Source of the DNA: an uncultured Ruminococcus sp.
Lineage (GTDB): Bacteria > Bacillota > Clostridia > Oscillospirales > CAG-272
Direction: 5' to 3'
DNA length: 64,000 bases
Assembly (NCBI GenBank): GCA_902778145.1
Contig: CACYWW010000005.1
Span: 65,013 to 129,012, forward strand
Within the stretch, counting starts at the first letter, position 1. Each line of letters begins with the position of its first letter. Of the stretch, positions 36,820-52,008 are shown one piece after another. The notes under the pieces were generated by a model. It ran no database searches and was not told where the DNA came from. It saw only the letters and a program-made list of their open reading frames with translations. The position numbers and the translations under genes were made by a program.

Positions 36820-37644
36820 TCAAATTGTTTTTAACGGTATAAAATCAATATTGCGTTCATTCATGTTTTTTATAACTGAACGAACTTTTTGTGATACAAT
36901 AAAAACTTGTTGACCGTGTTCGCAAAATTTGTCTTCAGTCATAAACGCATCGACGTTTTTAGGCAATTTATCTTCAATAACTCCCATCATATACCATAAC
37001 GTTGTAGGCATATTAAGATGTGTCAATTCTTCTCCGCAGATTCTGCAGCAGGGATGTACAAATCCTCTTGGGAAATACAGCGCTTCTCTGATTAATTTTT
37101 CTGTAAAAAGCATTTGATAGACGTCGTCACGTGCCGTACCGTCTTTTCGATTGACAACTCCGAAATCAATTCCAATGATATTGTTTTGCTTAAACTGACT
37201 TACGGCTTCAGGGCTGCAAAAGATATCGTCACCCCCGCCAAATGCAGAATAAAAATTATTTTTAGGCTTCCACTTTACCCTGCTTGTAAAAACATACGGA
37301 TTAATTTGTCTTTTGTAGTGATATATGTTTTCGCTTTTGGGGCACATATCGAATTCAAATGTATCAACATCCTCATTGATATCAAATTTTTTGCATTTGC
37401 TGTCCATATATAGCCATTTTGCAGAATCAAGCTCTTCATTGGAAAACCCATATCTTGTCATTCCGATCATACAATTTTTCAGTTCAAATGCTCTTTCAAA
37501 ATACTCATTATCGCTTGATACTTCAAAGCTTAAATATTCTTTATTGTCATACCCGGTGAAAAACTTATAATCGATTGAAAAATGGTCTAAATCTTTCTTA
37601 TTTTCAGGTATATTGTCACAATATAACGTAGATAATATTTGCAT
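36820..37644 (-). CDS. hypothetical protein in an AT-rich islet (single CxxCG motif; immunity-protein-like guess only)
   Basis: The 274-aa ORF has strikingly lower G+C than all neighbours. It has RBS GGAGGATAA upstream and a 'CCRICGEE' motif. No signal peptide or TM. Confidence 0.6.
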   Translation of the reverse strand: MQILSTLYCDNIPENKKDLDHFSIDYKFFTGYDNKEYLSFEVSSDNEYFERAFELKNCMIGMTRYGFSNEELDSAKWLYMDSKCKKFDINEDVDTFEFDMCPKSENIYHYKRQINPYVFTSRVKWKPKNNFYSAFGGGDDIFCSPEAVSQFKQNNIIGIDFGVVNRKDGTARDDVYQMLFTEKLIREALYFPRGFVHPCCRICGEELTHLNMPTTLWYMMGVIEDKLPKNVDAFMTEDKFCEHGQQVFIVSQKVRSVIKNMNERNIDFIPLKTI

Positions 37645-37838
37645 AAAAATTATCCTCCAAACAGTGTTTTTCGAGCAGCTTCAAGCAAATCGGGAAAACA
37701 CCCTTATGGGAACCAGCGTAATACCGGCTTTTTCTGTTTATGTCCCGTATTTTGTGAGCGTACGCGCGGCGTCCTCACCGAGCGCTTGAAGCTCTTTTGC
37801 CCGGAGCGTTTTTTGACGCATGATCTCATGCGCCGGTT

Positions 37839-38933
37839 TCATTTCACGAGCAGCGTCTTTACGTTTTTGCCGGCGAGCGCATCTTCAAACGCACGGTTCA
37901 CGTCGCTTACCTTGTAATATGTCCCGAGTGAAAGGATCGTTTCATAAAGCTCTTCATGAGCGCAGAGAAAATCGAGATAATCACGCACGTCGATCATGGA
38001 ATACTGCGACGATCCGATCATCTGCAATGCCTTGAACGTGATCAGCTGCGGCTCGACGTGTACTCCGCCGTTGTTGCTGTATTGTCCGGGGATGAGATAC
38101 GCTCCGCGGTTCCTGAGCATGTTCATGCCCTGCGGGACGGCTGAGGGCGCGCCGGAGGCTTCAAAGCATAGATCCGCGCCGAGACCGCCGTTTTCGGACC
38201 GTATCTTTTCGGTGACGCGATCCTTGCCGTCACGGTCGAGATTCAGGACTTCGTCGGCACCGAGTCTGTAAGCGAGCTCTTCTCTGCTTTTATTGTCACC
38301 CGCGGTTATCGCGTACAGCTTTTTGACGCCGAGCGTTTTCAGATACATGACGGCGAAGGTGCCGACCGGACCGAGCCCCTGAACGACCGCGGTAGTATCC
38401 CCGTCTATGCGTATATTCGCCTGTTTCGCAAGCCTGACGGCGTGTATCGCGGTAGGCCCGGGACACGCGAACATGGCGGCGATCTTCGGGTCGAGCCCGT
38501 CCGGGATCTTCACTAGATTTGTAAGCGGCGTGTAATTCACCTCGGCGTAGCCGCCAAAGAGATACGGAGGCTCATATATGCTTCCGCCGTTCGTCACGGA
38601 CATATTGACGCAGTTGGCGTCGTCTCCGTTTCTGCAGAGCAGACATTTTCCGCACGGGACGGCGATATCGGCGATCACGTTGTCGCCCGCCTTCAGTCCG
38701 TACGCCGCCGCCTCGTCCGGATCACAGTCGACAAGACGTCCTACGAATTCATGGCCTATGACGGTGGGAGTGCCGACGGAGAGCGTGCCTCTGTAAAAAT
38801 GAAGATCGGTCCCGCAGACTCCGCTTGCGATAAGCTCTGATCTGCCGTAGCCGGACGGCGTTTCCGTCACCTCGAATTCCCTGACCTCGAACGGTACGCC
38901 CGCTCCGTTGAAAACCGCAGCTTTTGCTTTCAT
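37839..38933 (-). CDS. zinc-dependent medium-chain alcohol/polyol dehydrogenase
   Basis: 'GVCGTDLH', 'GHEFVG', structural-Zn Cys cluster 'CGKCLLCRNGDDANC', and 'VVQGLGPVG' Rossmann motif. Confidence 0.85.
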   Translation of the reverse strand: MKAKAAVFNGAGVPFEVREFEVTETPSGYGRSELIASGVCGTDLHFYRGTLSVGTPTVIGHEFVGRLVDCDPDEAAAYGLKAGDNVIADIAVPCGKCLLCRNGDDANCVNMSVTNGGSIYEPPYLFGGYAEVNYTPLTNLVKIPDGLDPKIAAMFACPGPTAIHAVRLAKQANIRIDGDTTAVVQGLGPVGTFAVMYLKTLGVKKLYAITAGDNKSREELAYRLGADEVLNLDRDGKDRVTEKIRSENGGLGADLCFEASGAPSAVPQGMNMLRNRGAYLIPGQYSNNGGVHVEPQLITFKALQMIGSSQYSMIDVRDYLDFLCAHEELYETILSLGTYYKVSDVNRAFEDALAGKNVKTLLVK

Positions 38934-38942
38934 ATGATCCTC

Positions 38943-39707
38943 CTATTCAATGTTTGTTTCCAGATATTCATTGTATATTTCCGCCGCGTGCGCCATCGTA
39001 TCCTTTGACGGCGGCTTTACGTCTTTATACGCGTATTTGAGTCCGAGCGCAGTGTACTTTGAGCTTCCGAGCCTGTGGAACGGCAGAAGATCCGCTCTGC
39101 GGGCGCCCGCCCGCACAAGCAGGCGGCAGATCTCGCGGCAATCATCATCCGAAGAGTTGAAGCCGGGTATGAAAGGTATCCTGACCCTGACGTCGGCGCC
39201 GGACGATAAAAGCTTTTGAAGATTCTCCGCAATGAGCGTAATGTCGCCGCCGATCGACGCGTATTTAACGGGATCCGCGGTCTTTATATCGAAATAGTAC
39301 AGTTCTATGAACGGCAGAACGGACTGAAACGCCCGCCACGGCACGCATCCGGCGGTATCGGCGAGCACGTCTATCCCGCGCCCGCGCAAAAGCGACGAAA
39401 GCTCCGCGGCGCCCTCGTACTGCAGAAGCGGCTCACCGCCGCTCAGAGTCACGCCTCCGCCGCCCGCGCGGTAGAATTCGATGTCCTCGGATACGTCGTC
39501 CGCGATCTCACCGGGCGTCATCATCCTGCCGTACGAAACAGAGACGCCGCCGGGATAGCTGAGCGTCTGAGGCTTAGGCGACAGCGTCTCCGGATTGTGA
39601 CACCACGGACAGCGCAGGACGCAGCCCTTGAAGAAAACCGTTGTGCGGATGCCGGGACCGTCACCCGTTGAAAAGCGCTGGATATTGCTTACGTTGATCT
39701 TCGTCAT
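38943..39707 (-). CDS. glycyl-radical enzyme activating enzyme (radical SAM)
   Basis: 'DGPGIRTTVFFKGCVLRCPWCHNPE' is the canonical PflA-type N-terminus. It overlaps the GRE stop by 4 nt. Confidence 0.9.
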   Translation of the reverse strand: MTKINVSNIQRFSTGDGPGIRTTVFFKGCVLRCPWCHNPETLSPKPQTLSYPGGVSVSYGRMMTPGEIADDVSEDIEFYRAGGGGVTLSGGEPLLQYEGAAELSSLLRGRGIDVLADTAGCVPWRAFQSVLPFIELYYFDIKTADPVKYASIGGDITLIAENLQKLLSSGADVRVRIPFIPGFNSSDDDCREICRLLVRAGARRADLLPFHRLGSSKYTALGLKYAYKDVKPPSKDTMAHAAEIYNEYLETNIE

Positions 39708-41806
39708 AGCTCGTCGTGCTGGGTGCGGCTCAGGATATCCTCCTGTACCTCGGGCGAGAGCGTGACGTAATAAGCCGAAAAGCCCGACACGCGGACGACG
39801 AGCGACCGATACTGTTCGGGATGGACTCTCGCGTCCTCGAGCACCTTTCTTGAGGTTGAGTTTATCTGTATCTCCTGACCGCCGCGGCTGAAATAAACGC
39901 GTATCAGCTGCGCCAGCTTCTCACGCTTGCCGTCTTTGAAGGCGGACGGGGAGAATTTCTGATTTACGACGGTGCCGCAGGCGCAGCGCGTGTAATCCGG
40001 CTTCGATACGCTCAGAAGCGTAGACGTGACGCCGCGGACGTCGCAGCCGTACGTGGGGGACGCGGCGTCGGATAACGGTTTGTTCGCAAGTCTGCCGTCC
40101 GGCGTGGCGCCGAGCTCATGGCCCGCGTATATATTTGAAATGTTTGCCGCCATAGCGGTATAGACCGCGCCGCCGTCGTTCGTCCTGTATCCGTCGAAGA
40201 TATCCGAAAGATGCGACGTGTACCATACGGCGTACTTATCCGCGTATTCGTCATTGTTGCCGTATTTCGGAGCGGCGAGCACGAGCGCTCTCAGTTCATC
40301 ATATCCTTCGAAATCCGCCCTGAGCGCATCAGCAAGCTCCGACAGCGTAACCGCGCGGCGGTCGAAAACGACGTCCTCGATCGCTGAAAGCGAATCGCTC
40401 ACGGTTCCGATGCCCATGAGGACCGCGCCGTGTACCGACGGATATTTCGCTCCGCCCATATTTATATCGAGCCCGCGCTCTATGCAGCAGTCGCAGAAGC
40501 AGGACATGAACGGAGACGTCATTGACGAAGGATCTTCAACGTATGAAACAGCGTGCATCCACGCGGCGTACTGCGCGGCGCCCTCCTCAAGCTTTTTCTC
40601 GTACAGCCGCATGAATTCATCCATGGATCCTATCGAATCGAGCGTTTCCGCGTCGGAATCGCGCAGGATGGATTCGAGATATCTGATCGGATCGAATCTG
40701 CCGTCTACCCACGGCGGCTGTTTTCCCGTTATGAAATTCTCGATGCAGCCGACCATGCAGTAATTGCGTACGTCCTTTATATCGTATCCTTTGCGGGAAA
40801 GCGCCGCCATATTGACGGTATCGTTCATGAGCGCCGGATATCCGAGACCGGTGCCGATGACCTTCAGACACTCGTCAAGAAAGCTGTCGGGACAGTCGGG
40901 CGTTATGCGGGCTGAGAGGTTAGGTCCGGGCATATTTACGTCTCGCACAGCGTGCAGCGTGCAGTACGACAGCCCGTTCACTGAGCAGTTCCCGTCCTCG
41001 TCAACGCCGCCTATGCAGATGTTCACAACGTCGTCGCCGCCTTTGTATCTGCTCTCGCAGATCTTGACGAACGCGTTTGAAAGAAGCGATTCCGCGAATT
41101 CATCCGTAAGCGTGCCGTTTTCAACGTCGCGCCTGTACAGCGGGTAAAGATACATGTCAATCCTGCCGAGAGCCATCGCATATCTGCCCTCAAGCACGAA
41201 GCAGCTGTGTATCATCCAGACGAGCTGCAGTCCCTCGGCAAACGTAGCAGGCGCCCTTTCGGTCAGGGCACGGCAGTTATTTTCTATAAACGACAGCTTT
41301 TCCGTGTCGTATCCGTCTTTTCCGATCAGGGAATGAGCGGCGTCTGCGTAATTTGAAAGTCTCTTTGAGAGGGCGCGGACGGTCTTTTCCATACTGTGCA
41401 GAAAAGACAGCTTTTCGGGCTCTTCCGCGTGCGCCCCGATCGATTCATTTATCTTTGCAAGAAGTCCCGGCACTCCCTCTTTAACGGCTGTGAAATAATC
41501 CGCCGCAAAGTGGTCGCCGTTGCGGCCGAAACCGCGTTCGGGATATTTCGATACCGTCTCCGCGGCGCTCTGCCTTCCTTCCGGCGAAGCCTCCGCGAAA
41601 ACGTCCCGGATGCTTCCGGCGATCAGGTCATTTTTATAAATGAACGGCGACGGAAGGCTGAAAAGCGCGGCGATACCGTCGGCACGCGCGCCGTGGTCAG
41701 ACTCGCTTTCGCTTTCCGCGTATCCGCGCGCCCGGAAAAGCTCCGGTGAAAAAACGCCCGCCGGTCTGTTCTTCATCTCGTTTTTAAGATCGTTTATGAC
41801 GCTCAT
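39704..41806 (-). CDS. glycyl radical enzyme, PFL2/dehydratase-like, about 700 aa
   Basis: The C-terminal 'LVVRVSGFSAYYVTLSPEVQEDILSRTQH' is the glycyl-radical motif, and a Cys loop 'MVGCIENF' is present. Start moved to ATG 41806 (MSVINDL, RBS AAGGAGCC); the 60 upstream codons of the ORF cross the divergent promoter region. Confidence 0.85.
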   Translation of the reverse strand: MSVINDLKNEMKNRPAGVFSPELFRARGYAESESESDHGARADGIAALFSLPSPFIYKNDLIAGSIRDVFAEASPEGRQSAAETVSKYPERGFGRNGDHFAADYFTAVKEGVPGLLAKINESIGAHAEEPEKLSFLHSMEKTVRALSKRLSNYADAAHSLIGKDGYDTEKLSFIENNCRALTERAPATFAEGLQLVWMIHSCFVLEGRYAMALGRIDMYLYPLYRRDVENGTLTDEFAESLLSNAFVKICESRYKGGDDVVNICIGGVDEDGNCSVNGLSYCTLHAVRDVNMPGPNLSARITPDCPDSFLDECLKVIGTGLGYPALMNDTVNMAALSRKGYDIKDVRNYCMVGCIENFITGKQPPWVDGRFDPIRYLESILRDSDAETLDSIGSMDEFMRLYEKKLEEGAAQYAAWMHAVSYVEDPSSMTSPFMSCFCDCCIERGLDINMGGAKYPSVHGAVLMGIGTVSDSLSAIEDVVFDRRAVTLSELADALRADFEGYDELRALVLAAPKYGNNDEYADKYAVWYTSHLSDIFDGYRTNDGGAVYTAMAANISNIYAGHELGATPDGRLANKPLSDAASPTYGCDVRGVTSTLLSVSKPDYTRCACGTVVNQKFSPSAFKDGKREKLAQLIRVYFSRGGQEIQINSTSRKVLEDARVHPEQYRSLVVRVSGFSAYYVTLSPEVQEDILSRTQHDEL

Positions 41807-41891
41807 ATATAAGGCTCCTTCATAAAACTCATTACATCGTAAGTATACCACGTACAGCGCCGCTTTTACAATGGATAATATAGAAATAATC

Positions 41892-41920
41892 TTGACATTT
41901 TTAAGATATTGTTGTACAAT
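41892..41920 (+). promoter_or_regulatory. promoter of the AraC-family regulator
   Basis: TTGACA, 17 nt, TACAAT. Confidence 0.5.
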
Positions 41921-41938
41921 AGATCCGGAGGTGACGAT

Positions 41939-42715
41939 ATGGACGACAATAGACTTCCCGATCTTCCGAGGATACTTTTCGCTCACAGGTTCGCATCCGA
42001 CAGATACGCGGCAGCGCTTCCCTGCGCGGACGGCAGGATCGAGATAACATGTATAACAAAGGGCTCGTTTTCCGTGCGTCAGGGCGACGTTTCGGGAAAC
42101 GCCGCGGCGGGGGACATGGTATGCAATTTCTTCGGCTCGCCGCTTAAGATCGACGCGCCGTTACCTCATGAGCATCACACGGTATGTTTTTATTCTCCGG
42201 AGGGGTTTTCATATCTGCACAAAATTCCGCTGATCGTCAGATCTCAAAGGATCTTTCAGAGATGCCGCCGGCTGATAGACGAAACGATACGCGTCCATAC
42301 CATGTACCCGACGGACACGCTGCGCGTCGCCGGGCTGTTTTTCCAGATCGCGGGGGAGCTTTTGTCGGATAACCCGGCGGAAGGCGCGGCACCCTCCGAC
42401 CGGCTCTACGCCGAAAGGGCGAAAAACTATGTTTACGAGCATATTTACGAGATGCAGGACCAGCGCGCGGCGGCAAAGAGCCTCGGTATAACTCCGGAAT
42501 ATCTTTGCGCCGTATTCAGAAAATCGGAGGGGAGATCGCTCATCAGATTCACGAACGAGCTGAAGCTCGAAAACATTCTCGAGCTGATGCGGTCAAAGGG
42601 CGTGACTCTCGCTGAGGCTTCGGCGCAGTACGGCTTCTCCGATCCGAATTACGTCAGCCGTCTTTTTAAAAAATATTTCGGTGAAAACATAACTGAAACA
42701 CTCAAAAAGCCGTGA
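41939..42715 (+). CDS. AraC-family transcriptional regulator (cupin-like N-domain + HTH)
   Basis: C-terminal 'AAAKSLGITPEYLCAVFRK...FSDPNYVSRLFKKYFG'. It is divergent from the GRE operon. Start at ATG 41939 with GGAGGTG upstream. Confidence 0.85.
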   Translation: MDDNRLPDLPRILFAHRFASDRYAAALPCADGRIEITCITKGSFSVRQGDVSGNAAAGDMVCNFFGSPLKIDAPLPHEHHTVCFYSPEGFSYLHKIPLIVRSQRIFQRCRRLIDETIRVHTMYPTDTLRVAGLFFQIAGELLSDNPAEGAAPSDRLYAERAKNYVYEHIYEMQDQRAAAKSLGITPEYLCAVFRKSEGRSLIRFTNELKLENILELMRSKGVTLAEASAQYGFSDPNYVSRLFKKYFGENITETLKKP

Positions 42716-42743
42716 TTTATTTACATTTTTTGTGTATTTTATA

Positions 42744-42772
42744 TTGACTTTTCGACGCAGTTGAATTATAAT
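42744..42772 (+). promoter_or_regulatory. promoter of the 174-aa ORF / RT module
   Basis: TTGACT, 17 nt, TATAAT. Confidence 0.6.
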
Positions 42773-42813
42773 GGAAAAAAGGTTCCTATATAAAAAAACA
42801 AGGAGATTGGGAA

Positions 42814-43338
42814 ATGGGATTTTTATCTAAACTGTTCGGCGGCAGCAAAGACGCCGAAAAAACAGCTCTCGATCTGCTCAAGAATCTTATGAATTCCGAT
42901 AAAAAGGAAGATCGTAAAGAGGAAAAGAAGCAGGAAGAAGCGCCCGCGCCGGCGCAGGACCCGAGCCCCGTTTATGACAGCACCGATTCCGGCCCCTCCG
43001 GTTTTTCATGGGGTGAAAGAATGCCCGCGGAAGAAAACCAGTACAACTACAACGGCACCTACAGAGAATACTTTGAGCATATCTTCCGCGACGACTTTTC
43101 ACAGTATCAGCTCAAAGCCGAGCCTCAGCCCGGCGGCAAGCGCATAGTGTACACGCTGTTCGACCTCGGGCGTACCGTTTGCGTCGTGGAGGTCATGCAT
43201 CAGGGCAGCGACTCAAAGAAGCTGCGCGAGAAGTGCCGGAGAAACGGTATAGGCTACTGCCGTTTCTACCACAACCATGACGGCTGGTGGAACACGCGTG
43301 AATACGTAGTCACCCGTATCAAAGAAGCCATAGGCTGA
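42814..43338 (+). CDS. hypothetical protein: disordered K/E/P-rich N-half, compact C-terminal domain (weak PD-(D/E)xK-like pattern)
   Basis: RBS AAGGAGA. The C-terminus is 'YFEHIF..F..Y.L....IVYTLFDLGRTVCVVEVMHQ.....KLREKCRRNGIGYCRFY'. Confidence 0.6.
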   Translation: MGFLSKLFGGSKDAEKTALDLLKNLMNSDKKEDRKEEKKQEEAPAPAQDPSPVYDSTDSGPSGFSWGERMPAEENQYNYNGTYREYFEHIFRDDFSQYQLKAEPQPGGKRIVYTLFDLGRTVCVVEVMHQGSDSKKLREKCRRNGIGYCRFYHNHDGWWNTREYVVTRIKEAIG

Positions 43339-43347
43339 CAAAACACA

Positions 43348-43489
43348 GAAAAAAGCGGAAAGAGAACGCCACGTGCGCCTGCGGAGGACCAGGCACGGAC
43401 GATAACGGAGCTTCGCAGGCAGCCCGTCCGTGTACGGCCCGGTACATCCCGTAATTATACGGGCTTTAAAGTCTTCTCTTTCCGTTTTT
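43348..43489 (+). other. inverted-repeat-bracketed structured spacer immediately upstream of the RT (candidate ncRNA)
   Basis: gAAAAAAGCGGAAAGAGAA (43348-43366) pairs with TTCTCTTTCCGTTTTT (43474-43489), 16 pairs with one bulge. The 107 nt between are GC-rich and contain hairpins, for example cccgta-atta-tacggg (43448-43463) and cacggacg/cgtccgtg (43394-43401 / 43425-43432). Confidence 0.35.
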
Positions 43490-43501
43490 ATATTTTTGAA
43501 A

Positions 43502-44689
43502 ATGTCACTGCTCGACAAGCTGAGAGATCCCGCAGTATGGGAAAAATTCTACGAATATAAATCCGGGCTCTCATGCCCCGGATCATACCTGAAGGAGCTG
43601 CGCGGCTTCATCGACCGGGCGGGTTATCTGCCCGTCTGCGATACGATCGATTCGGGCGGCGTTTTTCCGCTGCCGAAAAAAAGCGTTATAAGCAAGGTCG
43701 GCTCCGAAAAAAAGCGCACGGTCTACACGTACCCGGACGACGAGAACACGACCCTGAAGCTGCTCACGCATCTTCTCCTCCGCAGGTACGACGGACTTTT
43801 CTCCCCCGGCCTCTACTCCTTCCGTCCCGGAAGGACGGCAAAGGACGCGGTGCGGCGGCTGAGAAGGATTTCCCGCGGGATGTACAGCTATAAGACCGAC
43901 ATACACGATTATTTCAACTCAATACCGCTTGACAGATTTATCCCGCTTCTCCGCTCGGTGACCGGGGAAGACCCGCGTTTGTTCTCTTTCCTCTCTTCTC
44001 TTTTGCTTGAAAGCCGCGTGACAGACCGCGGCAGGGTGACGGAGGAACAAAAGGGGATCATGGCGGGAACGCCGCTGTCCGCGTTTTACGCGAATCTTTA
44101 CCTTTCGGAGCTCGACCGTCATTTCGACGGCGTACCGTACGCGCGGTATTCAGACGACATCATAGTCTTCGCAAAGGACAGGAACGAGCTTGACGGACAC
44201 GTTGAATACATAAATTCCGCGCTCTCCCGCGCGGGTCTCACGGTCAACCCGAAAAAGGAGACGTACGGGGAGCCGGACGAGGGCTTCGTTTTTCTCGGCT
44301 TCATCTGCTCGGACGGCGTGACGGACATCGCGCCGGTGACCGTTGTCAAGCTGAAGAAGAAAATGCGGCGCAAGGCGCGTTCGCTCGTCCGCTGGTACAA
44401 CAGGACGGACTCCGATCCGGAGCGAGCCGCCGCCGCTTTCATCCGTGTCTTCAACCGCAAGCTCCTCGACGACCCGCAGGGCAACGAGCTCTCCTGGAGC
44501 CGCTGGTTCTTCTCAGTCATAAACACGGACAAAAGCCTGCACGAGATCGACCTTTACGCTCAGGACTGTATACGGTACATAATATCCGGTTCGCGTAAAA
44601 AAACGCGCTTCCGTGTGACGTACGACGACATGAAGGCGCTTGGGTACAGAAGCCTTGTGCACGAATACCATAAGGATTCAAAATCATGA
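43502..44689 (+). CDS. stand-alone reverse transcriptase (RNA-directed DNA polymerase), class unresolved
   Basis: RT motifs are 'YSFRPGRTAKDA', 'TDIHDYFNSIP', 'GIMAGTPLSAFYANLYL', catalytic 'YSDDIIVFA', 'GLTVNPKKE' and 'GFVFLGF', followed by a ~130-aa basic thumb-like tail. The start is uncertain: ATG 43502 has no obvious SD, and GTG 43430 is the alternative. Confidence 0.85.
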   Translation: MSLLDKLRDPAVWEKFYEYKSGLSCPGSYLKELRGFIDRAGYLPVCDTIDSGGVFPLPKKSVISKVGSEKKRTVYTYPDDENTTLKLLTHLLLRRYDGLFSPGLYSFRPGRTAKDAVRRLRRISRGMYSYKTDIHDYFNSIPLDRFIPLLRSVTGEDPRLFSFLSSLLLESRVTDRGRVTEEQKGIMAGTPLSAFYANLYLSELDRHFDGVPYARYSDDIIVFAKDRNELDGHVEYINSALSRAGLTVNPKKETYGEPDEGFVFLGFICSDGVTDIAPVTVVKLKKKMRRKARSLVRWYNRTDSDPERAAAAFIRVFNRKLLDDPQGNELSWSRWFFSVINTDKSLHEIDLYAQDCIRYIISGSRKKTRFRVTYDDMKALGYRSLVHEYHKDSKS

Positions 44690-44729
44690 ATGATGAATTC
44701 AGAATTCTTCATTAATGTCCGGTATTGTG

Positions 44730-44758
44730 TTGACAAAACGCGTTTTCGGGGTTATAAT
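44730..44758 (+). promoter_or_regulatory. promoter of the alpha/beta hydrolase gene
   Basis: TTGACA, 17 nt, TATAAT (perfect consensus). Confidence 0.65.
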
Positions 44759-44783
44759 TATAAAAAATCAGCGGGAGAAAGTC

Positions 44784-45638
44784 ATGAGATCATTTGACGG
44801 AAAAGAGCTTTACACATACCTTTGGGACGACGTGAAGGATCCGGTCGGAGTCGTACAGCTCTGCCACGGCATGTGCGAACATCTGGGCAGATACGACGGC
44901 TTTGCGCGGTTCCTCAATAAAAACGGATACATAGTTTTCGGTGACGACCACAGAAGCTACGGCAAAACGGACAACAACTCGGGCTACTGCGACGGCGAAT
45001 ACGTGGGCGACACGGTCAGAGACCTCGTATTCATAAACGAATACCTCAAGAAGGAATACGGTCTTCCTATCACGTTCATAGGCCACAGCTACGGAAGCGT
45101 ACTGGGTCAGAGGTTCGTACAGCTCAACACGGGGATAAAGAACGCCGTGCTTACCGGAACGCTGACGATACCGCACGCGCTCTGCCGTCTCGGACAGGGC
45201 GTCATGGCGCCGGTAAAGGCGATAGCGCCGCATGCGGGCGTCGCGCTTTCGAGCGCGAAATTCCCGGACGAGGACGAGGCACCGGATTCGTTCCTCACAA
45301 AGGATACGGAGATCAGACGTCAGTACGCCGAGGATCCGCTCTGCGGCGGAAAATCGTCGATGAGATATTACTACGGCTTTATAAAGCTGATGGGTGACGC
45401 GACAAAAAAGGCGAACGTCAAGGCGATCCCGGACAGTCTTCCGATAGGGATATTCAGCGGCAAAGACGACGGTATCGGGCATTTCGGCAAGGACCCGCGA
45501 AAGGTGTATGAGACGTACAAAAAGTACGGCAAGAACGCGTATCTGAAGCTCTACGAAAACGACCGGCACGAGATCCTGAACGAGACTGACAAGGATCGCG
45601 TGATGAACGACATCCTCGAATTCATAAAAAACAACTGA
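44784..45638 (+). CDS. alpha/beta hydrolase (lysophospholipase / monoacylglycerol-lipase-like)
   Basis: 'CHGMCEH' oxyanion region, nucleophile elbow 'GHSYGS', and C-terminal 'DRHEILNE' His. Start at ATG 44784 with GGGAGAAAG upstream. Confidence 0.8.
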   Translation: MRSFDGKELYTYLWDDVKDPVGVVQLCHGMCEHLGRYDGFARFLNKNGYIVFGDDHRSYGKTDNNSGYCDGEYVGDTVRDLVFINEYLKKEYGLPITFIGHSYGSVLGQRFVQLNTGIKNAVLTGTLTIPHALCRLGQGVMAPVKAIAPHAGVALSSAKFPDEDEAPDSFLTKDTEIRRQYAEDPLCGGKSSMRYYYGFIKLMGDATKKANVKAIPDSLPIGIFSGKDDGIGHFGKDPRKVYETYKKYGKNAYLKLYENDRHEILNETDKDRVMNDILEFIKNN

Positions 45639-46012
45639 AAAAAACGCGGTCTTGCGGTGTACTTCGTAAGGAAGTACACCGCAGCTAAATTCGCTTCGCG
45701 AGCTAAATTATGCTTCGCATAGCTAAATTCGCCTTGCGGCGAGCTAAATTGGGCTTCGCCCAGCTAAATTTGCTTCGCAAGCTAAATTCGGCTTTGCCGA
45801 GCTGAAAAAGGCGAATTTAGGGACAATTTAGCTATCGAACGCAGTGAGATAATTTAGCTGCGAGCAACTGCGAGCAATTTAGCTGTTTTCAAAATCATTC
45901 TTAATATCAAAGCGATTAGAACAAGCTGAAAGAGAATAACCCACTATAACACTTTCAATAATAGAAAGATGTCAGAGTGGGTTTGTTTCTTCCTTACGCA
46001 GCCTCTCCCTTG
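45638..46012 (+). repeat. composite structured repeat element, copy 1 (GNRA hairpin + opposed AGCTAAATT/mini-hairpin arrays + AT-rich tail + terminal hairpin)
   Basis: 12-bp hairpin gcggtgtacttc-GTAA-gaagtacaccgc (45654-45682). Six exact AGCTAAATT at 45683, 45701, 45721, 45742, 45762 and 45780. Three exact AATTTAGCT at 45825, 45851 and 45876. Terminal hairpin aacccact.../...agtgggtt plus a T-rich tract (45938-45993). Confidence 0.9.
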
Positions 46013-46022
46013 CCGCGTTTTT

Positions 46023-47699
<1,677 letters not shown>

Positions 47700-47733
47700 T
47701 CATTATGCGGACGCTTTTTCACCTGACGGGGTG

Positions 47734-47762
47734 ATTATACACCATAAAATGCAATTTGTCAA
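47734..47762 (-). promoter_or_regulatory. pyrG promoter
   Basis: Minus strand: TTGACA, 17 nt, TATAAT (perfect consensus). Confidence 0.6.
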
Positions 47763-48095
47763 TACAGTATCCTGCATTTTTTGAAAAAATTCGTCGTACC
47801 GGGCATCGGAGCTCTCCGCCTACGCGCAGACTCTCCGCTTACGCGCAGAAAGGACAAAAGCTTTTTTTCAACGGGGCAAAAGCATGTATAATTTTTCAAT
47901 GTGTATTCGTGAAAGCATACATTTGTTTTTTTTTGCACAGTATTAACATTATGATCATATTTATTCAACAAATTCCGTGTTCGATCAATGTATAATAATT
48001 ACCGCGGGAGTCTCCGCAAGCCGGAATCGGATCCGATCCGATCGCTTCGATCCGGCGTTCGGATCAAAAATACAAACGATCAAGGATGTCAAAAA

Positions 48096-49211
48096 ATGAA
48101 AAGAACAGTCGTTTTACTGATCATCGCAGTTTTCATACTCACTTCATGCGTCACAAATGATCCACGGCACAGCGGATCCGATATTACGACGACGGCAAAT
48201 ATCACAACGTCCGAAGATCCGTCACTTCAGGGCGATCTCACGGACGGTAAAGCCGCCGGGACTTCGGAAAGCACGAACGCCGCAGACGATATAACGGACG
48301 ATCCGATCAGAAATCCTGATCAGATCGACGTCACCTCTCTTTCGGGATATAAAGCCTTCATCACCGGGTTTGAAGGTACACTCGGAACAAAGTTTCCGTT
48401 CAACCTGATATCCGAATTTGAATATCCGGTCGGTATAAAAAGCGAAAGAGTCGTACTCGACGGCGATGACATCGAAAAGGAAAAGACCATAGAATATAAC
48501 GGTAAGGTCATCGATCTGCGGTATCAGAATTCTTTTATCGGCGATAACGGTCATCAGTACCATTATTATACATATATAGATTACGATTACGTCAATCAGG
48601 TTTTCGGACACGAAAGATCCGCACCGTGTGAATGCAGCGTATGCTTTGATGAAAACCAAAACATCTGCTATTTTCAGGGATCAGCGATCGGGCGCGTCGA
48701 AGTCGATAATTTCGAAGACGGCGAGGCGCTCAAAAAAGCCGTGACGGATTATCTCGGCGACAGGCTCTGCTTTGATAAATTCAACGGATTCAAATGCTCT
48801 TATCCGATCGGGATCGGGCGCTGCGACCTCAGATGGTTTTATGAACCGACCGAGGGGATAGCGTTCAACGACAACTGGATCCAGGTATCCGTATTCGATA
48901 CCGGATATATAGGCTACTACACATATAGATATGAAGAAGAAAATGATCATTCAGGAATTGATTATCCGTTTACGTATGAAGAGACCGTGGCAATAGCACA
49001 GAACAGGATATTCAAAGCGGTGGAAGAAGCGGGATGGTCCGTCAGAGGATGGTACACAGGCCATATGGTCAATACGGTCCTCGCGTTTATGCACGAGGGA
49101 AAGCCGGCTGTATACGTCGGGCTTTCGCTCAAACTCACGGATCCGGACGGCGCTGCGCTGCCATACGCGGTAGGTATCGGCGCGGTCGTGATGCCGGATG
49201 ACGGCAAATAA
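48096..49211 (+). CDS. putative lipoprotein, function unknown
   Basis: MKRTVVLLIIAVFILTSC lipobox, followed by a T/S/D-rich linker. Start moved to ATG 48096. Confidence 0.6.
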   Translation: MKRTVVLLIIAVFILTSCVTNDPRHSGSDITTTANITTSEDPSLQGDLTDGKAAGTSESTNAADDITDDPIRNPDQIDVTSLSGYKAFITGFEGTLGTKFPFNLISEFEYPVGIKSERVVLDGDDIEKEKTIEYNGKVIDLRYQNSFIGDNGHQYHYYTYIDYDYVNQVFGHERSAPCECSVCFDENQNICYFQGSAIGRVEVDNFEDGEALKKAVTDYLGDRLCFDKFNGFKCSYPIGIGRCDLRWFYEPTEGIAFNDNWIQVSVFDTGYIGYYTYRYEEENDHSGIDYPFTYEETVAIAQNRIFKAVEEAGWSVRGWYTGHMVNTVLAFMHEGKPAVYVGLSLKLTDPDGAALPYAVGIGAVVMPDDGK

Positions 49212-49247
49212 AAGCAAAACAGAGCGGCAAAAACCGCTCTTGTTTTA
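49212..49247. terminator. bidirectional intrinsic terminator
   Basis: agagcgg-caaaaa-ccgctct, flanked by A-rich and T-rich tracts between convergent genes. Confidence 0.7.
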
Positions 49248-49252
49248 TGCCG

Positions 49253-49954
49253 TCACGCTTTCGCCGCTTCGATGAACGACGCGAACAGCGCGTCGGATAC
49301 GGGGTCCGACGAGTGCGTGAATTCGGGATGCCACTGTACAAGGAGTATGAAGCGGTCGTCAACGCTTTCAAGCGCCTCGATCATGCCGTCCGCCGCGAGC
49401 GCGGCGACGCGCAGTCCCGGCGCCGGATCCTTCACTCCCTGATGATGGAACGAATTCGTCATAAAACGCTCGCCCGAGACCGAGCGCAGGAACGTGCCTT
49501 CAAGCGTGCGCACCTCGTGCGTCGGCTCGGTCGCCGGCGCCGACTGCCTGTGACAGACGTCCGACGGGCGCTGGGACGGTATATCCTGGTACAGCGTTCC
49601 GCCCATGCCGACGTTCACGCTCTGTATCCCGCGGCAGATGCCCATGATCGGCTTGTTCGTTTTCAGAACGATCCCGAGTCCGGTCATCTCGAGCGCGTCG
49701 CGCACGGGGTCGACCTCCACGGTGTCGTTCAGTTTCTCCTCTCCGTAAAGCGACGGGTCGAGATCGACGCCGCCGGAAAACAGAAATCCGTCCGCCTTCT
49801 CGCACATCGCCTCAAGCGTTTCCGCGTCCGTGTTCATAGGTATCAGGAGCGGGATCCCGCCGTGGCAGCGCACGGCGTCCGTATATCTGACGCTCATCGC
49901 CGTCAGATCGTCTTTTCTTGTAGGGAATATAAGTATAACGGGTCTTTTCATCAT
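49253..49954 (-). CDS. class I glutamine amidotransferase, peptidase C26 / gamma-glutamyl-GABA hydrolase-like
   Basis: 'GICRGIQ' nucleophile Cys and 'VQWHPE' His/Glu. Start at ATG 49954 (MMKRPVILIF). Confidence 0.8.
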   Translation of the reverse strand: MMKRPVILIFPTRKDDLTAMSVRYTDAVRCHGGIPLLIPMNTDAETLEAMCEKADGFLFSGGVDLDPSLYGEEKLNDTVEVDPVRDALEMTGLGIVLKTNKPIMGICRGIQSVNVGMGGTLYQDIPSQRPSDVCHRQSAPATEPTHEVRTLEGTFLRSVSGERFMTNSFHHQGVKDPAPGLRVAALAADGMIEALESVDDRFILLVQWHPEFTHSSDPVSDALFASFIEAAKA

Positions 49955-50102
49955 GTTCTCCCGGTTTTTTTGATATATTCTATCACCTGCCGCGGTAAAT
50001 TTCAAGTCTTTACACGCAAATTATGATAAATGTTACACCGCCGTAATATACCCTTGCTTTTTATGCGTTACAATGGTATCGGAAAGAATGTGAGGCCGTT
50101 TG

Positions 50103-51383
50103 ATGTTTGAGTTGCCTTTTGAAATAGATCAGGTCCTCGAAAAGCTCTGTCATTCGGGATACGAAGCGTATCTCGTCGGCGGCGCCGTGCGCGACATGCT
50201 CATGGATAAGCCGGCGCACGATTACGACGTTACGACGTCGGCAACGCCCGAGGAGACGGAGCGCGTATTCGAGGGATACAAAGTGATAAAAACGGGGATC
50301 CGCCACGGCACCGTGACGGTGCTTGTCGGAAACTACCCCGTAGAGATAACGACGTTTCGCCGCGAGGGATCGTATACCGACGGCAGGCATCCGGACGCCG
50401 TGTTTTTCTCACGCAGACTTGAAGACGATCTGAGCCGCAGGGATCTCACCGTGAACGCGGTGGCGTATTCGCCCGTAAAAGGACTTTCGGATCCGTTCGG
50501 CGGAGTCGACGATATAAAAAACAGGATCATAAGATGCGTGGGCAACCCGGACGAGAGGTTTTCTGAGGATCATCTCCGTCTTCTGCGTGCGCTGCGCTTC
50601 TCCGCCGTGCTCGGTTTCGCGATCGAGCGCGGCACCGCGGAGTCGATACATAAAAACGCGGAGCTTATCAGAACGGTCTCCGCCGAGCGCGTCTTCTCCG
50701 AGCTTTGCCGCCTCGTATGCGGCGACGGCGCGAGGATGATACTCGAAGAATACCGCGACGTGATAACCGCGGTGATACCGGAGCTTTCCGCGCTCGACGG
50801 CGACGCGTACGCTCATACCGTCGGCAGTCTGTCGTACACGGAGCCGTTCCTGCATCTCAGGCTCGCCGCGCTTCTGCACGACACGGTCGCCGCACCCTCC
50901 GGGCGTGACGACGTCTGCGTGATACGCGACACGGCGGCGAAAAACGCGCTCGTATGTCTGCGCTGCCCCACAGCGCTGTGCGACAACGTCTGCCGCATCA
51001 TCCGTTACTGCGGCTCAGACGTCGACCCGTCAGACAAGATCAGCCTCAAGCGGCTGGCCTCGAAGACCGGCATAAAGATCCTGAAGGACGTCATAAAGCT
51101 CAAGCGTGCGGACGTCCTCGCCGGAGATCCGCGGCTGTATCACAGGCTGACCGATCTGAACACGGCGTACGACACGCTCTGCGAGACAGAGGAGAACGGC
51201 ACCGCGCTCGACGTGCGCGACCTGGCGATCAACGGCAACGACGTGAAGGGGCTCGGGGTCCGTCCCGGTCCCGCTGTCGGCGAGCTTCTGAGATACGCGC
51301 TCGACGGCGTGATATCGGATCGCGTGGAGAACGAAAAGGCGCCTCTTTTGGCCTATGTGGCTGAAAAAATCAGCGGAGTTTGA
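50103..51383 (+). CDS. cca: CCA tRNA nucleotidyltransferase
   Basis: 'GYEAYLVGGAVRD..........DYDV' head-domain motif and 'RD.T.NA'. Confidence 0.9.
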   Translation: MFELPFEIDQVLEKLCHSGYEAYLVGGAVRDMLMDKPAHDYDVTTSATPEETERVFEGYKVIKTGIRHGTVTVLVGNYPVEITTFRREGSYTDGRHPDAVFFSRRLEDDLSRRDLTVNAVAYSPVKGLSDPFGGVDDIKNRIIRCVGNPDERFSEDHLRLLRALRFSAVLGFAIERGTAESIHKNAELIRTVSAERVFSELCRLVCGDGARMILEEYRDVITAVIPELSALDGDAYAHTVGSLSYTEPFLHLRLAALLHDTVAAPSGRDDVCVIRDTAAKNALVCLRCPTALCDNVCRIIRYCGSDVDPSDKISLKRLASKTGIKILKDVIKLKRADVLAGDPRLYHRLTDLNTAYDTLCETEENGTALDVRDLAINGNDVKGLGVRPGPAVGELLRYALDGVISDRVENEKAPLLAYVAEKISGV

Positions 51384-51952: not shown

Positions 51953-51969
51953 AAGAAAACATACAAGAC

Positions 51970-51990: not shown

Positions 51991-52008
51991 GTATATACGG
52001 GATAAAAT

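What the first reader, a model, noticed from the sequence alone, without database searches (positions are those of the whole stretch)
42744..44689. Stand-alone reverse transcriptase in a three-part module (small ORF, IR-bracketed spacer, RT) that fits no familiar RT class by eye
Seen in the sequence: one consensus promoter (TTGACT-17-TATAAT) precedes a 174-aa ORF, a 163-bp non-coding gap, and then a ~395-aa ORF. That ORF has a full set of RT finger/palm motifs (FRPGRTAKDA; TDIHDYFNSIP; GIMAGTPLSAFYANLYL; catalytic YSDDIIVFA; GLTVNPKKE; GFVFLGF) plus a ~130-aa basic tail and nothing else. It has no HNH/En domain, no fused effector and no primase or nitrilase. The next gene has its own perfect promoter, so the module appears to end at 44689. 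Arguments against the usual explanations follow. No domain V/VI-like RNA follows the stop and no host gene is interrupted, which argues against a group II intron. RT7 lacks the retron-type VTG and no NAxxH-type insert is evident. Motif 4 reads MAGTPLSA rather than the (I/L)GxxxSQ of DGR RTs, and no TR/VR pair is visible. Established knowledge: free-standing RTs with an adjacent ncRNA are the architecture of retrons and of UG/Abi (DRT-type) anti-phage systems. Inference: this is a candidate RT-based system of unassigned type, sitting in an accessory stretch of the chromosome.
Basis: partly seen in the sequence, partly recalled or inferred. Interest (0 to 1): 0.8.

Follow-up and report, generated by a model that had tools for sequence, protein, structure and literature searches.

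The report
UG26 reverse transcriptase with RT-5 RNA
The flagged module is real, but all three parts are already catalogued (a UG26 reverse transcriptase, the Rfam RT-5 RNA and a small partner protein), and no one has yet shown what the system does.

Summary
A promoter-like site (42744-42772) precedes a 174-aa ORF (42814-43338), a 163-bp gap and a 395-aa RT (43502-44689).

None of the three parts is unassigned:
- The RT matches PADLOC RT_UG26 end to end (E 7e-164). UG26 is a Class 2 UG/Abi group (Mestre 2022).
- The small ORF matches the PADLOC profile RTasCOG2852 (E 1.5e-59).
- The gap is Rfam RT-5 RNA (87.7 bits; gathering score 45.7).

What I add from about 130 related loci:
- The three parts form one cassette. 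RT-5 lies beside the RT in 44 of 46 genome loci, and the small ORF in 40 of 46.
- No other neighbour is conserved. I found no defence-island signal and no close phage-borne copy.
- The RNA is larger than the Rfam model. A covarying pseudoknot joins the 5' tail to the apical loop.
- Two archaeal loci carry the same RNA downstream of the RT.

The function is untested. My best inference is an RT-RNA particle that makes DNA in an RNA-dependent way, possibly protein-primed from a conserved C-terminal tyrosine. The template could not be identified.

Verdict: a new member of a known but uncharacterised kind, of moderate interest.

The parts
42744..42772 (+). Sigma-70-type promoter-like site (TTGACT-17-TATAAT), the likely promoter of the whole cassette
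   Evidence: 11 of 12 consensus positions. This is a consensus match only. No second strong promoter lies between it and the RT.
42814..43338 (+). Small partner protein (174 aa). It has a conserved N-terminal MGxLSKLFGG peptide and helix, a variable disordered linker, and a C-terminal alpha-beta-beta-beta-alpha-beta-alpha domain (about residues 80-174).
   Evidence: PADLOC RTasCOG2852, E 1.5e-59, full length. No Pfam or NCBIfam family. Homologues sit upstream of the RT on the same strand in 40 of 46 genome loci. AF2 pLDDT is above 90 for residues 70-174. Invariant residues include P71, E73, N75, Q76, E126, R150 and the G157-W-W-N-T161 run.
43351..43366 (+). P0 5' strand (purine-rich), the closing helix of the non-coding RNA. 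It is followed by a conserved YGC (43367-43369).
   Evidence: The 16 pairs are 90.4% paired across 89 distinct sequences. 15 of 16 pairs show changes on both sides. 0 of 500 shuffles reach the observed covariation.
43373..43477 (+). RT-5 RNA core (Rfam RF03026): long hairpin P1 (43386-43440) and hairpin P2 (43448-43452 with 43459-43463)
   Evidence: 87.7 bits against a gathering score of 45.7, model positions 1-104. My own model R1 scores 102.6 bits. P1 and P2 covary.
43377..43383 (+). Pseudoknot 5' arm (GCCUGCG), which pairs with the apical loop of P1
   Evidence: The 7 pairs are 99.2% paired and 5 of 7 show changes on both sides. The alignment was not fitted to this helix.
43414..43420 (+). 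Pseudoknot 3' arm (CGCAGGC) in the apical loop of P1
43474..43489 (+). P0 3' strand (pyrimidine-rich, ending in a U-run). [quoted passage not shown]
43502..44689 (+). UG26 reverse transcriptase (395 aa). The catalytic YSDD is encoded at 44147-44158. The conserved C-terminal SLVHEY motif has Tyr390 at 44669-44671.
   Evidence: PADLOC RT_UG26, E 7e-164, residues 1-394 on profile positions 1-397 of 398. Palm residues are invariant across 37-100% identity. AF2 pLDDT is 91.2. The fold is nearest to group II intron RT, G2L4 and DRT9. The C-terminal motif is shown.

Best explanation
This is a UG26 system, a Class 2 UG/Abi reverse transcriptase cassette with three parts. These are a small partner protein, a structured non-coding RNA of about 150 nt (Rfam RT-5 plus a closing helix), and a free-standing, catalytically intact RT.

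Shown here:
- The identity of all three parts.
- Their near-obligate co-occurrence, in a fixed order and on one strand.
- The RNA's architecture: closing helix P0, a conserved YGC junction, a pseudoknotted long hairpin P1, hairpin P2, an A/U-rich junction, and the return strand of P0.
- Conservation of the polymerase active site.

Inferred, in steps:
1. The cassette is transcribed from the promoter-like site at 42744.
2. The RNA folds and is bound by the RT as a trans-acting partner rather than a translational leader.
3. The RT makes DNA in an RNA-dependent way, copying a short stretch of that RNA. This is what every characterised Class 2 relative does (DRT2, DRT9, DRT10).
4. Priming may come from the conserved tyrosine in the C-terminal SLVxx(Y/F)(Y/H) motif, by analogy with the C-terminal priming residues of DRT9 and DRT10.
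5. The small protein is an accessory sensor or effector. It may have a restriction-endonuclease-like fold but lacks a canonical catalytic triad.

The biological role is most likely defence against phages or other mobile elements. That is the weakest step. The templating segment could not be identified.
For: Identity:
- RT_UG26 543 bits, next best UG4 at 107 bits; RTasCOG2852 at 199 bits.
- RT-5 at 87.7 bits.
- Mestre 2022 treats UG26 under Class 2 and reports cluster 1531 / COG2852 beside 9 of 35 members.

One cassette:
- RT-5 lies next to the RT in 44 of 46 full-length genome loci, and in 96 of 100 sources. The misses are L024 and contig-edge cases.
- The small ORF lies upstream on the same strand in 40 of 46 loci, and no other neighbour cluster is conserved.

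Real RNA structure:
- Covariation exceeds all 500 shuffles for P1, P2 and the pseudoknot and for P0.
- Cognate P0 flanks pair at -22.4 kcal/mol against -16.0 for swapped flanks, with 0 of 5000 permutations as low.

Trans-acting RNA rather than a leader:
- The distance from the RNA to the RT start codon ranges from 13 to 339 nt, and many loci have their own Shine-Dalgarno sequence.
- Two Methanomassiliicoccales loci carry the same architecture downstream of the RT.

Active polymerase: K131, D133, Y216, D218 and D219 are invariant down to 37% identity.

Mechanistic analogy:
- Class 2 DRTs use ncRNA templates (abstracts).
- The fold search hits DRT9 at E 7e-14 and DRT2 at 6e-10.
- A C-terminal Tyr is present in all 138 sequences inspected. 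Compare the DRT9 priming tyrosines in its C-terminal tail and DRT10 S456/Y444.

Spread across Bacillota, Bacteroidota and an archaeal order, with one locus per assembly, fits a horizontally moving accessory system.
Against: - No experiment exists for UG26. Mestre 2022 called its defence prediction 'inconclusive'.
- I also found no defence signal. Only about 10 of 122 neighbouring ORFs hit PADLOC, mostly generic ATPase profiles. In this window the flanks are housekeeping genes.
- By sequence and fold the RT is closer to group II intron RTs than to any characterised DRT. By sequence, GsI-IIC scores E 1.4e-33 against 6.6e-23 for DRT9. The fold search gives TM 0.69-0.75.
- No template could be found. 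A DRT10-style A-B-A' pattern in the P2/P0 junction is no better than permuted controls. No conserved never-ending ORF arises on concatenation.
- The COG2852 / Vsr-like label of the partner was not reproduced. There is no Pfam DUF559 hit at E <= 1 and no PDB profile hit at E <= 10. Foldseek gives only E 7e-3 to 0.02.
- The C-terminal tyrosine argument is by analogy only. I could not measure its distance to the active site.
Confidence: 0.55

Rival explanations
1. Retron-like mechanism. P0 plays the role of the retron a1/a2 inverted repeats. The conserved G of the YGC just 3' of the P0 5' strand supplies a 2'-OH primer. The RT copies the 3' part of the RNA (the junction plus P2) into a short branched msDNA, while the pseudoknotted P1 acts as the msr-like handle.
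For: - A long covarying closing helix brackets the RNA.
- YGC is at least 90% conserved immediately after the helix. My recollection, not checked here, is that retron branching G residues sit in an AGC context at the same place.
- The RNA lies directly upstream of the RT, as in retrons.
- Weinberg 2017 speculated that many RT motifs belong to retrons.
Against: - The RT is not a retron RT by HMM: retron_St85_RT scores 48 bits against a cut-off of 235.
- Retron RTs rank well below group II RT and DRT9 in both sequence and fold searches.
- By reading the sequence, the retron-type VTG in motif 7 and NAxxH are absent.
- In the archaeal loci the RNA is downstream of the RT.
Confidence: 0.15
2. A domesticated group II intron-like RT with a housekeeping role such as DNA repair or another nucleic-acid transaction (compare G2L4). 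The RT-5 RNA is then a binding site that controls RT expression or activity, not a template. The nuclease-like small protein acts in repair.
For: - The best structural and sequence relatives are group II intron RTs and G2L4.
- The neighbours are housekeeping genes and there is no defence-island signal.
- Each assembly has one locus.
- Mestre 2022 describes the COG2852 domain of the partner cluster as commonly associated with DNA repair.
Against: - The taxonomic distribution is patchy and spans two domains of life with variable neighbours. That is typical of accessory rather than core functions.
- The RNA's variable distance to the RT start (13-339 nt) and its downstream position in archaea argue against a cis leader.
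- An elaborate pseudoknotted RNA with a 16-bp closing helix is more than an operator needs.
- The nuclease and repair label of the partner is not reproduced here.
Confidence: 0.15
3. DRT2-like gene synthesis. Rolling-circle reverse transcription of the region enclosed by P0 gives a concatemeric cDNA that encodes a stop-less toxic ORF.
For: - The RNA is pseudoknotted and lies next to a Class 2 RT, as in DRT2.
- P0 brings the two ends of the enclosed region together.
Against: - The enclosed region has no conserved length class modulo 3 (26/29/29).
- Only 25 of 84 distinct sequences have any stop-free frame on concatenation, and no single frame is consistently open.
- The enclosed region is the most conserved and most structured part of the RNA. 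The DRT2 template is the least conserved part of its RNA.
- The PADLOC Drt2 profile scores 51.9 bits against 543 for UG26.
Confidence: 0.04
4. A remnant or unusual mobile retroelement: a degenerate group II intron, or a retroelement that copies itself.
For: The RT fold is group II-like. Some database entries name homologues 'group II intron reverse transcriptase domain-containing protein'.
Against: - An E-value Rfam scan finds no intron RNA domains.
- There is no endonuclease domain.
- TIGR04416 scores far below its cut-off.
- Each assembly has one locus and the flanks differ between genomes.
- No host gene is interrupted.
- A separate small protein gene is conserved inside the unit.
Confidence: 0.02

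Closest known systems
UG26 (unknown group 26), Class 2 UG/Abi reverse transcriptases (Mestre et al. 2022, PMC9226505)
   Same: The RT matches the full-length HMM at E 7e-164. It is free-standing with no fused domain. It is co-located with the cluster-1531 / 'COG2852' small protein.
   Different: Nothing places it outside the group. My survey differs from the published description in three ways:
- The partner is present in 40 of 46 loci rather than 9 of 35.
- A conserved ncRNA accompanies nearly every member, and the paper does not mention one for UG26 (0 occurrences of 'RT-5').
- The group extends to Bacteroidota and Methanomassiliicoccales.
Rfam RF03026 RT-5 RNA (Weinberg et al. 2017, PMC5737381)
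   Same: The spacer matches all 104 model positions at 87.7 bits and lies next to an RT gene, as the motif was defined.
   Different: The functional unit is larger than the Rfam model. A 16-bp closing helix P0 lies outside the model on both sides. A 5'-tail/apical-loop pseudoknot also covaries. I could not check whether the Rfam seed annotates this pseudoknot.
DRT9 (UG28) and DRT10 (UG17): Class 2 RT-ncRNA systems with protein-primed, ncRNA-templated DNA synthesis
   Same: - The structured ncRNA is encoded next to a free-standing Class 2 RT.
- Fold similarity to DRT9 is E 7e-14, TM 0.60.
- A conserved tyrosine sits near the C-terminus, like the C-terminal priming residues of DRT9 and DRT10.
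   Different: - The HMM scores are far lower than for UG26: Drt9 76 bits and UG17 89 bits.
- The RT is about 100 aa shorter than DRT9.
- The RNA has a different architecture.
- There is no conserved poly-U template loop, and no significant A-B-A' repeat in the P2/P0 junction, the one place tested statistically.
- The partner is a small nuclease-like protein, not a SLATT protein.
Group II intron RTs and group II-like RTs (GsI-IIC RT, G2L4)
   Same: These are the best matches by fold (E 3e-18, TM 0.69-0.75, aligned over the full length) and by sequence (E 1.4e-33). The match includes an N-terminal extension and a thumb/X-like helical domain.
   Different: - There is no intron ribozyme RNA.
- There is no DNA-binding/endonuclease extension.
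- It scores below the TIGR04416 cut-off.
- It has a dedicated 150-nt pseudoknotted RNA and a small protein partner instead.
Retrons
   Same: The ncRNA lies immediately upstream of the RT and is closed by a long inverted repeat, with a conserved G just after the 5' arm.
   Different: The RT lies outside the retron clade by HMM and by motifs. No msDNA evidence exists.

Membership tests
UG26 (Class 2 UG/Abi RT) | Best, full-length match to the group's RT profile, well separated from other RT groups | tested here: met
   RT_UG26 E 7e-164, 543 bits, residues 1-394 on profile positions 1-397 of 398. The next best hit is UG4 at 107 bits.
UG26 (Class 2 UG/Abi RT) | Free-standing RT with no fused known domain (the Class 2 criterion) | tested here: met
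   only RVT_1; a single compact fold of 395 aa.
UG26 (Class 2 UG/Abi RT) | Co-location with the cluster-1531 / COG2852-labelled small protein | tested here: met
   RTasCOG2852 E 1.5e-59; present in 40 of 46 loci.
UG26 (Class 2 UG/Abi RT) | Anti-phage defence function (implied by the DRT label in PADLOC) | tested here: inconclusive
   'inconclusive' in Mestre 2022; about 10 of 122 neighbouring ORFs hit defence profiles, mostly generic ATPases; housekeeping flanks in this window. No experiment is available.
Rfam RF03026 RT-5 RNA | Covariance-model score at or above the curated gathering score | tested here: met
   87.7 bits against 45.7, with the full model matched.
Rfam RF03026 RT-5 RNA | Conserved secondary structure supported by covariation | tested here: met
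   95.1% of cells paired, 24 of 30 pairs with changes on both sides, 0 of 500 shuffles as high.
Mobile group II intron | Ribozyme domains (I-VI) flanking the RT ORF | tested here: not met
   the E-value scan of 41500-46000 found only RT-5 and two weak unrelated hits; nothing at gathering score in the whole window.
Mobile group II intron | RT/maturase equivalog score (TIGR04416) | tested here: not met
   101.7 bits against a cut-off of 300.
Retron | Retron-type RT (family HMM; NAxxH and VTG motifs) | tested here: not met
   retron_St85_RT scores 48 bits against a cut-off of 235; motif 7 reads GFVFLGF with no VTG, and there is no NAxxH.
Retron | msr/msd RNA closed by a1/a2 inverted repeats with a branching G | tested here: inconclusive
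   a closing helix and an adjacent conserved G exist. Whether the G primes synthesis cannot be judged from sequence.
Retron | Production of branched msDNA | not testable with these tools
   This needs nucleic-acid extraction and debranching assays.
Diversity-generating retroelement | Template repeat / variable repeat pair near the RT | tested here: not met
   no direct repeat of at least 35 nt involves the module within 36000-52000.
CRISPR-associated RT | Adjacency or fusion to cas1/cas6 and a CRISPR array | tested here: not met
   the neighbours are an AraC regulator and an alpha/beta hydrolase, and no cas gene cluster is conserved; no repeat array next to the RT.
DRT9 / DRT10 (UG28 / UG17) | Membership of the UG28 or UG17 RT profile | tested here: not met
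   Drt9 76 bits and UG17 89 bits, against 543 for UG26.
DRT9 / DRT10 (UG28 / UG17) | Template signature in the ncRNA (poly-U loop, or A-B-A' downstream of a stem) | tested here: not met
   the repeat score in the P2/P0 junction is 3.10 against 3.05 permuted, with 1407 of 5000 permutations as high. The only U-run is base-paired in P0.
DRT9 / DRT10 (UG28 / UG17) | Conserved hydroxyl-bearing priming residue in the C-terminal tail | tested here: inconclusive
   the SLVxx(Y/F)(Y/H) motif has at least one Tyr in all 138 sequences. Its position relative to the active site, and any priming, were not tested.
COG2852 / DUF559 / Vsr-like PD-(D/E)xK nucleases (small ORF) | Sequence-profile match to the family | tested here: not met
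   no DUF559 or other nuclease family at E <= 1; no PDB chain at E <= 10; only 245 representative clusters in 1.84 billion proteins, so there is no bridge to a large superfamily.
COG2852 / DUF559 / Vsr-like PD-(D/E)xK nucleases (small ORF) | Restriction-endonuclease-like alpha-beta-beta-beta-alpha-beta core | tested here: inconclusive
   the predicted order H83-94, E99-104, E110-117, E120-128, H135-143, E147-152 fits that core; the best Foldseek hits are nuclease domains (DrdV at E 7e-3; EcoT38I at E 0.019, prob 0.99), but none reaches E <= 0.001.
COG2852 / DUF559 / Vsr-like PD-(D/E)xK nucleases (small ORF) | Catalytic D ... (D/E)xK residues | tested here: not met
   E126 in the third strand is invariant, but it is followed by V/L-M/L with no Lys. 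No invariant Asp lies in the second strand.

The most novel reading that the evidence does not exclude
UG26 with its RT-5 RNA could be a DNA-synthesising ribonucleoprotein with a mode of templating or priming not yet described. The RT is built like a group II intron enzyme. It is locked onto a pseudoknotted RNA closed by a long purine/pyrimidine helix, and it is shared by rumen and gut Bacillota, Bacteroidota and methanogenic archaea. Its role may not be classical phage defence, given the lack of any defence-island signal. If so, it would be another distinct entry in the growing list of unconventional bacterial 'DNA-writing' systems, and the first with archaeal members.
Probability: 0.3. Interest if true: 0.8.

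Novelty: new member of a known kind. Interest (0 to 1): 0.45.

Why it matters
Each Class 2 UG/Abi RT-ncRNA system studied so far has shown an unexpected way of making DNA:
- DRT2 assembles a gene from a non-coding RNA.
- DRT9 makes poly-dA.
- DRT10 adds repeats in a telomerase-like way.

UG26 has not been studied experimentally.

This locus gives a compact construct of about 1.95 kb with defined parts and mutations to test:
- a promoter;
- a 174-aa partner protein (E126);
- a roughly 150-nt RNA whose helices can be disrupted and restored by compensatory changes (P0 and the pseudoknot);
- a 395-aa RT (YSDD and Tyr390).

Two observations here are not in the papers I could search. The Rfam RT-5 motif is the UG26 RNA, and it is much larger than the Rfam model. 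Both would save an experimenter time.

For the genome scan the main message is negative. The module is not an unassigned RT type.

Tried and rejected
1. **DRT10-style template in the P2/P0 junction.** By eye, many loci show A-B-A' patterns such as GATTT-AAC-GATTT. The repeat score of cognate sequences (3.10) is no better than that of permuted pairs (3.05; 1407 of 5000 permutations as high). I attribute the pattern to U-rich composition.
2. **DRT2/Neo-like never-ending ORF.** Concatenating the P0-enclosed region gives no consistent open frame.
3. **Other possible realignment repeats.** I looked at GUAC...GGUAC in P1/J, and at GC...GC flanking the P0/pseudoknot junction. The variant loci (L026, L039, L041) do not co-vary, so I dropped both (by eye).
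4. **A small peptide starting at the UUG/GUG at RT-5 position 1, behind the purine-rich P0 strand.** The frame is not conserved and indels fall in the loop. The compensatory changes point to RNA structure.
5. **RT-5 in phages.** An exact-pattern scan of IMG/VR gave four identical hits that score only 12.9 bits with the model and have no RT nearby, so these are chance matches. A protein-based scan of IMG/VR found only RTs of 35% identity or less.
6. **Linking the small protein to DUF559/Vsr.** I tried Pfam, a PDB profile search and an exhaustive profile search. No link was found.
7. **Defence-island context.** PADLOC on 122 neighbouring ORFs gave no convincing signal.
8. **Conserved 3' tail as an internal promoter for the RT.** TTTAAA-18-TATATT at 43465-43494 matches 9 of 12 positions. 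This is possible as a secondary role. Covariation with the upstream strand shows that the primary constraint is base pairing.

Full report
**1.

The ORF list and the sequence show a 174-aa ORF at 42814-43338, preceded by an AAGGAG ribosome-binding site. An RT ORF ends at 44689.

The mechanical ORF starts at a GTG at 43430. The N-termini of homologues and gene calls on identical metagenomic contigs put the real start at ATG 43502.

All the quoted RT motifs are present, and Pfam sees only RVT_1.

The region has 7 such sites against 1.7 expected.

The 'IR bracket' is the pair 43351-43366 / 43474-43489, which is 94% complementary. The gap folds far better than shuffles (z = -4.8).

**2. All three parts are already catalogued**

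- The RT matches the PADLOC profile RT_UG26 from end to end (E 7e-164, 543 bits). The next best profile is UG4 at 107 bits.
- The small ORF matches the PADLOC profile RTasCOG2852 (E 1.5e-59).
- The gap matches Rfam RF03026 'RT-5 RNA' over the whole model, at 87.7 bits against a gathering score of 45.7.

Mestre et al. 2022 (PMC9226505) discuss UG26 under Class 2 UG/Abi RTs. They list 35 members, 9 of them next to 'cluster 1531', a COG2852/YcjD-like protein. They call the defence prediction inconclusive and mention no ncRNA for UG26.

Weinberg et al. 2017 (PMC5737381) described RT-1 to RT-19 as structured motifs next to RT genes, of unknown function.

A full-text search for UG26 found no functional study.

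**3. The three parts form one cassette**

A scan of one genome per species gave 49 loci, each from a different assembly. They come from rumen and gut Clostridia, Bacteroidales and Methanomassiliicoccales archaea, and 46 hold a full-length or nearly full-length RT. A metagenome scan gave 80 more.

A covariance model built from 14 Rfam hits finds RT-5 beside the RT in 44 of the 46 genome loci. It finds RT-5 in 96 of 100 sources searched together. The misses are L024 and contigs that end at the RT.

Clustering all ORFs within 3 kb shows two things:
- The small-protein family lies upstream on the same strand in 40 of 46 loci, including the Bacteroidales. This is far more often than the published 9 of 35.
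- No other neighbour family is conserved.

Exceptions:
- L022, L023 and L045 have the RNA and the RT only.
- L024 has the RT only.
- In L014 the small ORF and the RNA are inverted, 3 kb from the RT.

IMG/VR holds no close relative of the RT.

**4. The RNA is larger and more elaborate than the Rfam model**

*Pseudoknot.* The 5' tail GCCUGCG (43377-43383) pairs with the apical loop CGCAGGC (43414-43420).
- On an alignment that was not fitted to this helix, 99.2% of cells pair.
- 5 of the 7 pairs show changes on both sides, for example GCCCGCG/CGCGGGC, GUCUGC/GCAGAC and ACCUGC/GCAGGU.

*Closing helix P0.* Conservation continues past the 3' end of the model as UUCUCUUUCUGYUUUUUU. This strand pairs with AAAAAARCAGAAAGAGAA just upstream of the model.
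- On a plain MAFFT alignment of 89 distinct sequences, the 16 pairs are 90.4% paired.
- 15 of the 16 show changes on both sides, and 0 of 500 shuffles reach the observed covariation. Controls with the partner slid by 1-3 columns pair at 55-66%.
- Cognate flanks pair at -22.4 kcal/mol against -16.0 for swapped flanks, with 0 of 5000 permutations as low.
- The 5' strand stays purine-rich (mean 78%) and the 3' strand pyrimidine-rich (85%), even where the sequence changes completely. This may only reflect the tolerance of such helices to transitions.

*Full unit.* In the window the unit is: P0 5' strand (43351-43366), YGC (43367-43369), the pseudoknotted P1 (43386-43440), P2 (43448-43452 / 43459-43463), an A/U-rich junction, and the P0 3' strand (43474-43489). 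It ends 12 nt before the RT start codon.

**5. The RNA is a partner, not a leader**

The distance from the RNA to the RT start codon varies from 13 to 339 nt. Unrelated hairpins are inserted in that space, and many loci have a separate Shine-Dalgarno sequence.

In two Methanomassiliicoccales loci the same architecture lies downstream of the RT, with no small ORF. Its elements are:
- P0: GCACGAGAGG / CCUCUCGUGC;
- the junction UGC;
- the pseudoknot: CCGCA / UGCGG;
- P2: GUAAUGG / CCAUUAC.

That region is the best-conserved stretch between the two loci.

**6. The proteins**

*RT.*
- The palm residues (K131, D133, Y216, D218, D219) are invariant down to 37% identity.
- The AlphaFold model is confident (pLDDT 91.2).
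- Its nearest solved folds are the group II intron RT GsI-IIC (E 3e-18, TM 0.69-0.75 over the full length), G2L4 (3e-15), DRT9 (7e-14), DRT2 (6e-10) and retron RTs (about 5e-10).
- Sequence profiles give the same order.
- The C-terminus carries a conserved SLV(H/N)x(Y/F)(Y/H) motif followed by a variable charged tail. At least one tyrosine is present in all 138 sequences inspected.
- For comparison, DRT9 primes poly-dA synthesis from two tyrosines in its C-terminal tail (...SLNYDYE). DRT10 primes from C-terminal S456 or Y444.

*Small protein.*
- It has a conserved N-terminal MGxLSKLFGG peptide and helix, a variable disordered linker, and a confidently predicted alpha-beta-beta-beta-alpha-beta-alpha domain.
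- The best fold matches are nuclease domains of restriction enzymes, but they are weak (E 7e-3 and 0.019).
- No Pfam or PDB sequence link to DUF559/Vsr was found.
- The family is small: 245 representative clusters in 1.84 billion proteins.
- Only one acidic residue of a would-be PD-(D/E)xK site (E126) is invariant.
- Some relatives are tandem duplications, or carry an N-terminal zinc ribbon in place of the N-terminal peptide.

**7. Context**

The window's module sits between two sets of genes:
- upstream: a glycyl-radical enzyme, its activase, an alcohol dehydrogenase and an AraC regulator;
- downstream: an alpha/beta hydrolase, CTP synthase and a CCA-adding enzyme.

GC content is the same as the surroundings, and the context is the same on other contigs.

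Of 122 neighbouring ORFs from 46 loci, about 10 hit PADLOC profiles. Most of those are generic ATPase families.

No DGR-type repeat, CRISPR array or intron RNA is nearby.

**8. How it most likely works**

*Shown:* a conserved cassette made of an active RT, a dedicated pseudoknotted RNA and a small protein.

*Inferred:* the RT binds the RNA and synthesises DNA in an RNA-dependent way, because every characterised Class 2 relative does so. Priming may come from the C-terminal tyrosine.

I could not locate the template.
- The A-B-A' patterns that look striking by eye in the P2/P0 junction are not better than permuted controls.
- No Neo-like open frame exists.

A retron-like reading remains open. 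In it, P0 corresponds to a1/a2 and the conserved G after P0 is the branch point. The RT, however, is not a retron RT.

A non-defence role is also open. The RT is built like a group II intron enzyme and the loci show no defence-island signal.

**9. Verdict**

This is a new member of a known, catalogued but functionally uncharacterised kind. For a specialist it is a reasonable experimental target. As a discovery from this window it is modest.

Noticed in passing
window 45682-45806 (+): An array of at least three short hairpin-forming repeats (units like GCTAAATT-nGCTTCGCn-AGCTAAATT, spaced about 40 nt) lies in the intergenic region between the alpha/beta hydrolase gene and pyrG. It matches Rfam Gut-1 RNA below threshold (33.8 bits against a gathering score of 50). 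Locus L002 has an above-threshold Gut-1 hit (60.1 bits) next to a tRNA, 2.7 kb upstream of its own UG26 cassette.
   Followed up: no
window 8480-8596 (-): An FMN riboswitch (RF00050, 80.8 bits against a gathering score of 66.2). It is the only other Rfam hit at gathering score in the window.
   Followed up: no
L042 5330-5500 and L044 5330-5500: In two Methanomassiliicoccales MAGs the RT-5-like RNA lies downstream of the UG26 RT and there is no small partner ORF. The RNA keeps the closing helix, the YGC, the pseudoknot and P2. The Rfam gathering-score search missed it. My model scores it at only 27.9 bits.
   Followed up: partly
L014 774-1409 (-) versus RT at 4001-5194 (+): In one Ruminococcus MAG the small ORF and the RT-5 RNA are inverted and lie about 3 kb from the RT. 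A 749-aa ORF sits in between. This looks like a rearranged cassette.
   Followed up: no
L076/L080 1455-1794, L016 930-1217, L006 3740-4000, L094 1038-1107: The space between the ncRNA and the RT start codon holds insertions of up to 339 nt. These include GC-rich hairpins and, in L094, a tandem AACTTAAA repeat. Some of the inserted sequences resemble each other between loci (L096, L084, L076), which suggests a small repeated element.
   Followed up: no
proteins P0241-P0245, P0250 (379-433 aa); P0330, P0334, P0350, P0359: Some relatives of the small partner protein carry two to four copies of the domain in one polypeptide. Others replace the N-terminal MGxLSKLFGG peptide with a zinc ribbon, and one is 854 aa long. 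Their genomic contexts were not examined.
   Followed up: partly
window 43465-43494 (+): A weak promoter-like site (TTTAAA-18-TATATT, 9/12) overlaps the conserved UUUAA junction and the P0 3' strand. It would start transcription at about the RT start codon, which has no Shine-Dalgarno sequence in this window. The RT may therefore have a second, leaderless transcript.
   Followed up: no
window 39704-41986 (-): The mechanical ORF for the glycyl-radical enzyme (760 aa, GTG start) is 60 aa longer than the 700-aa product called on identical metagenome contigs. The long version would overlap the divergent AraC gene start.
   Followed up: no
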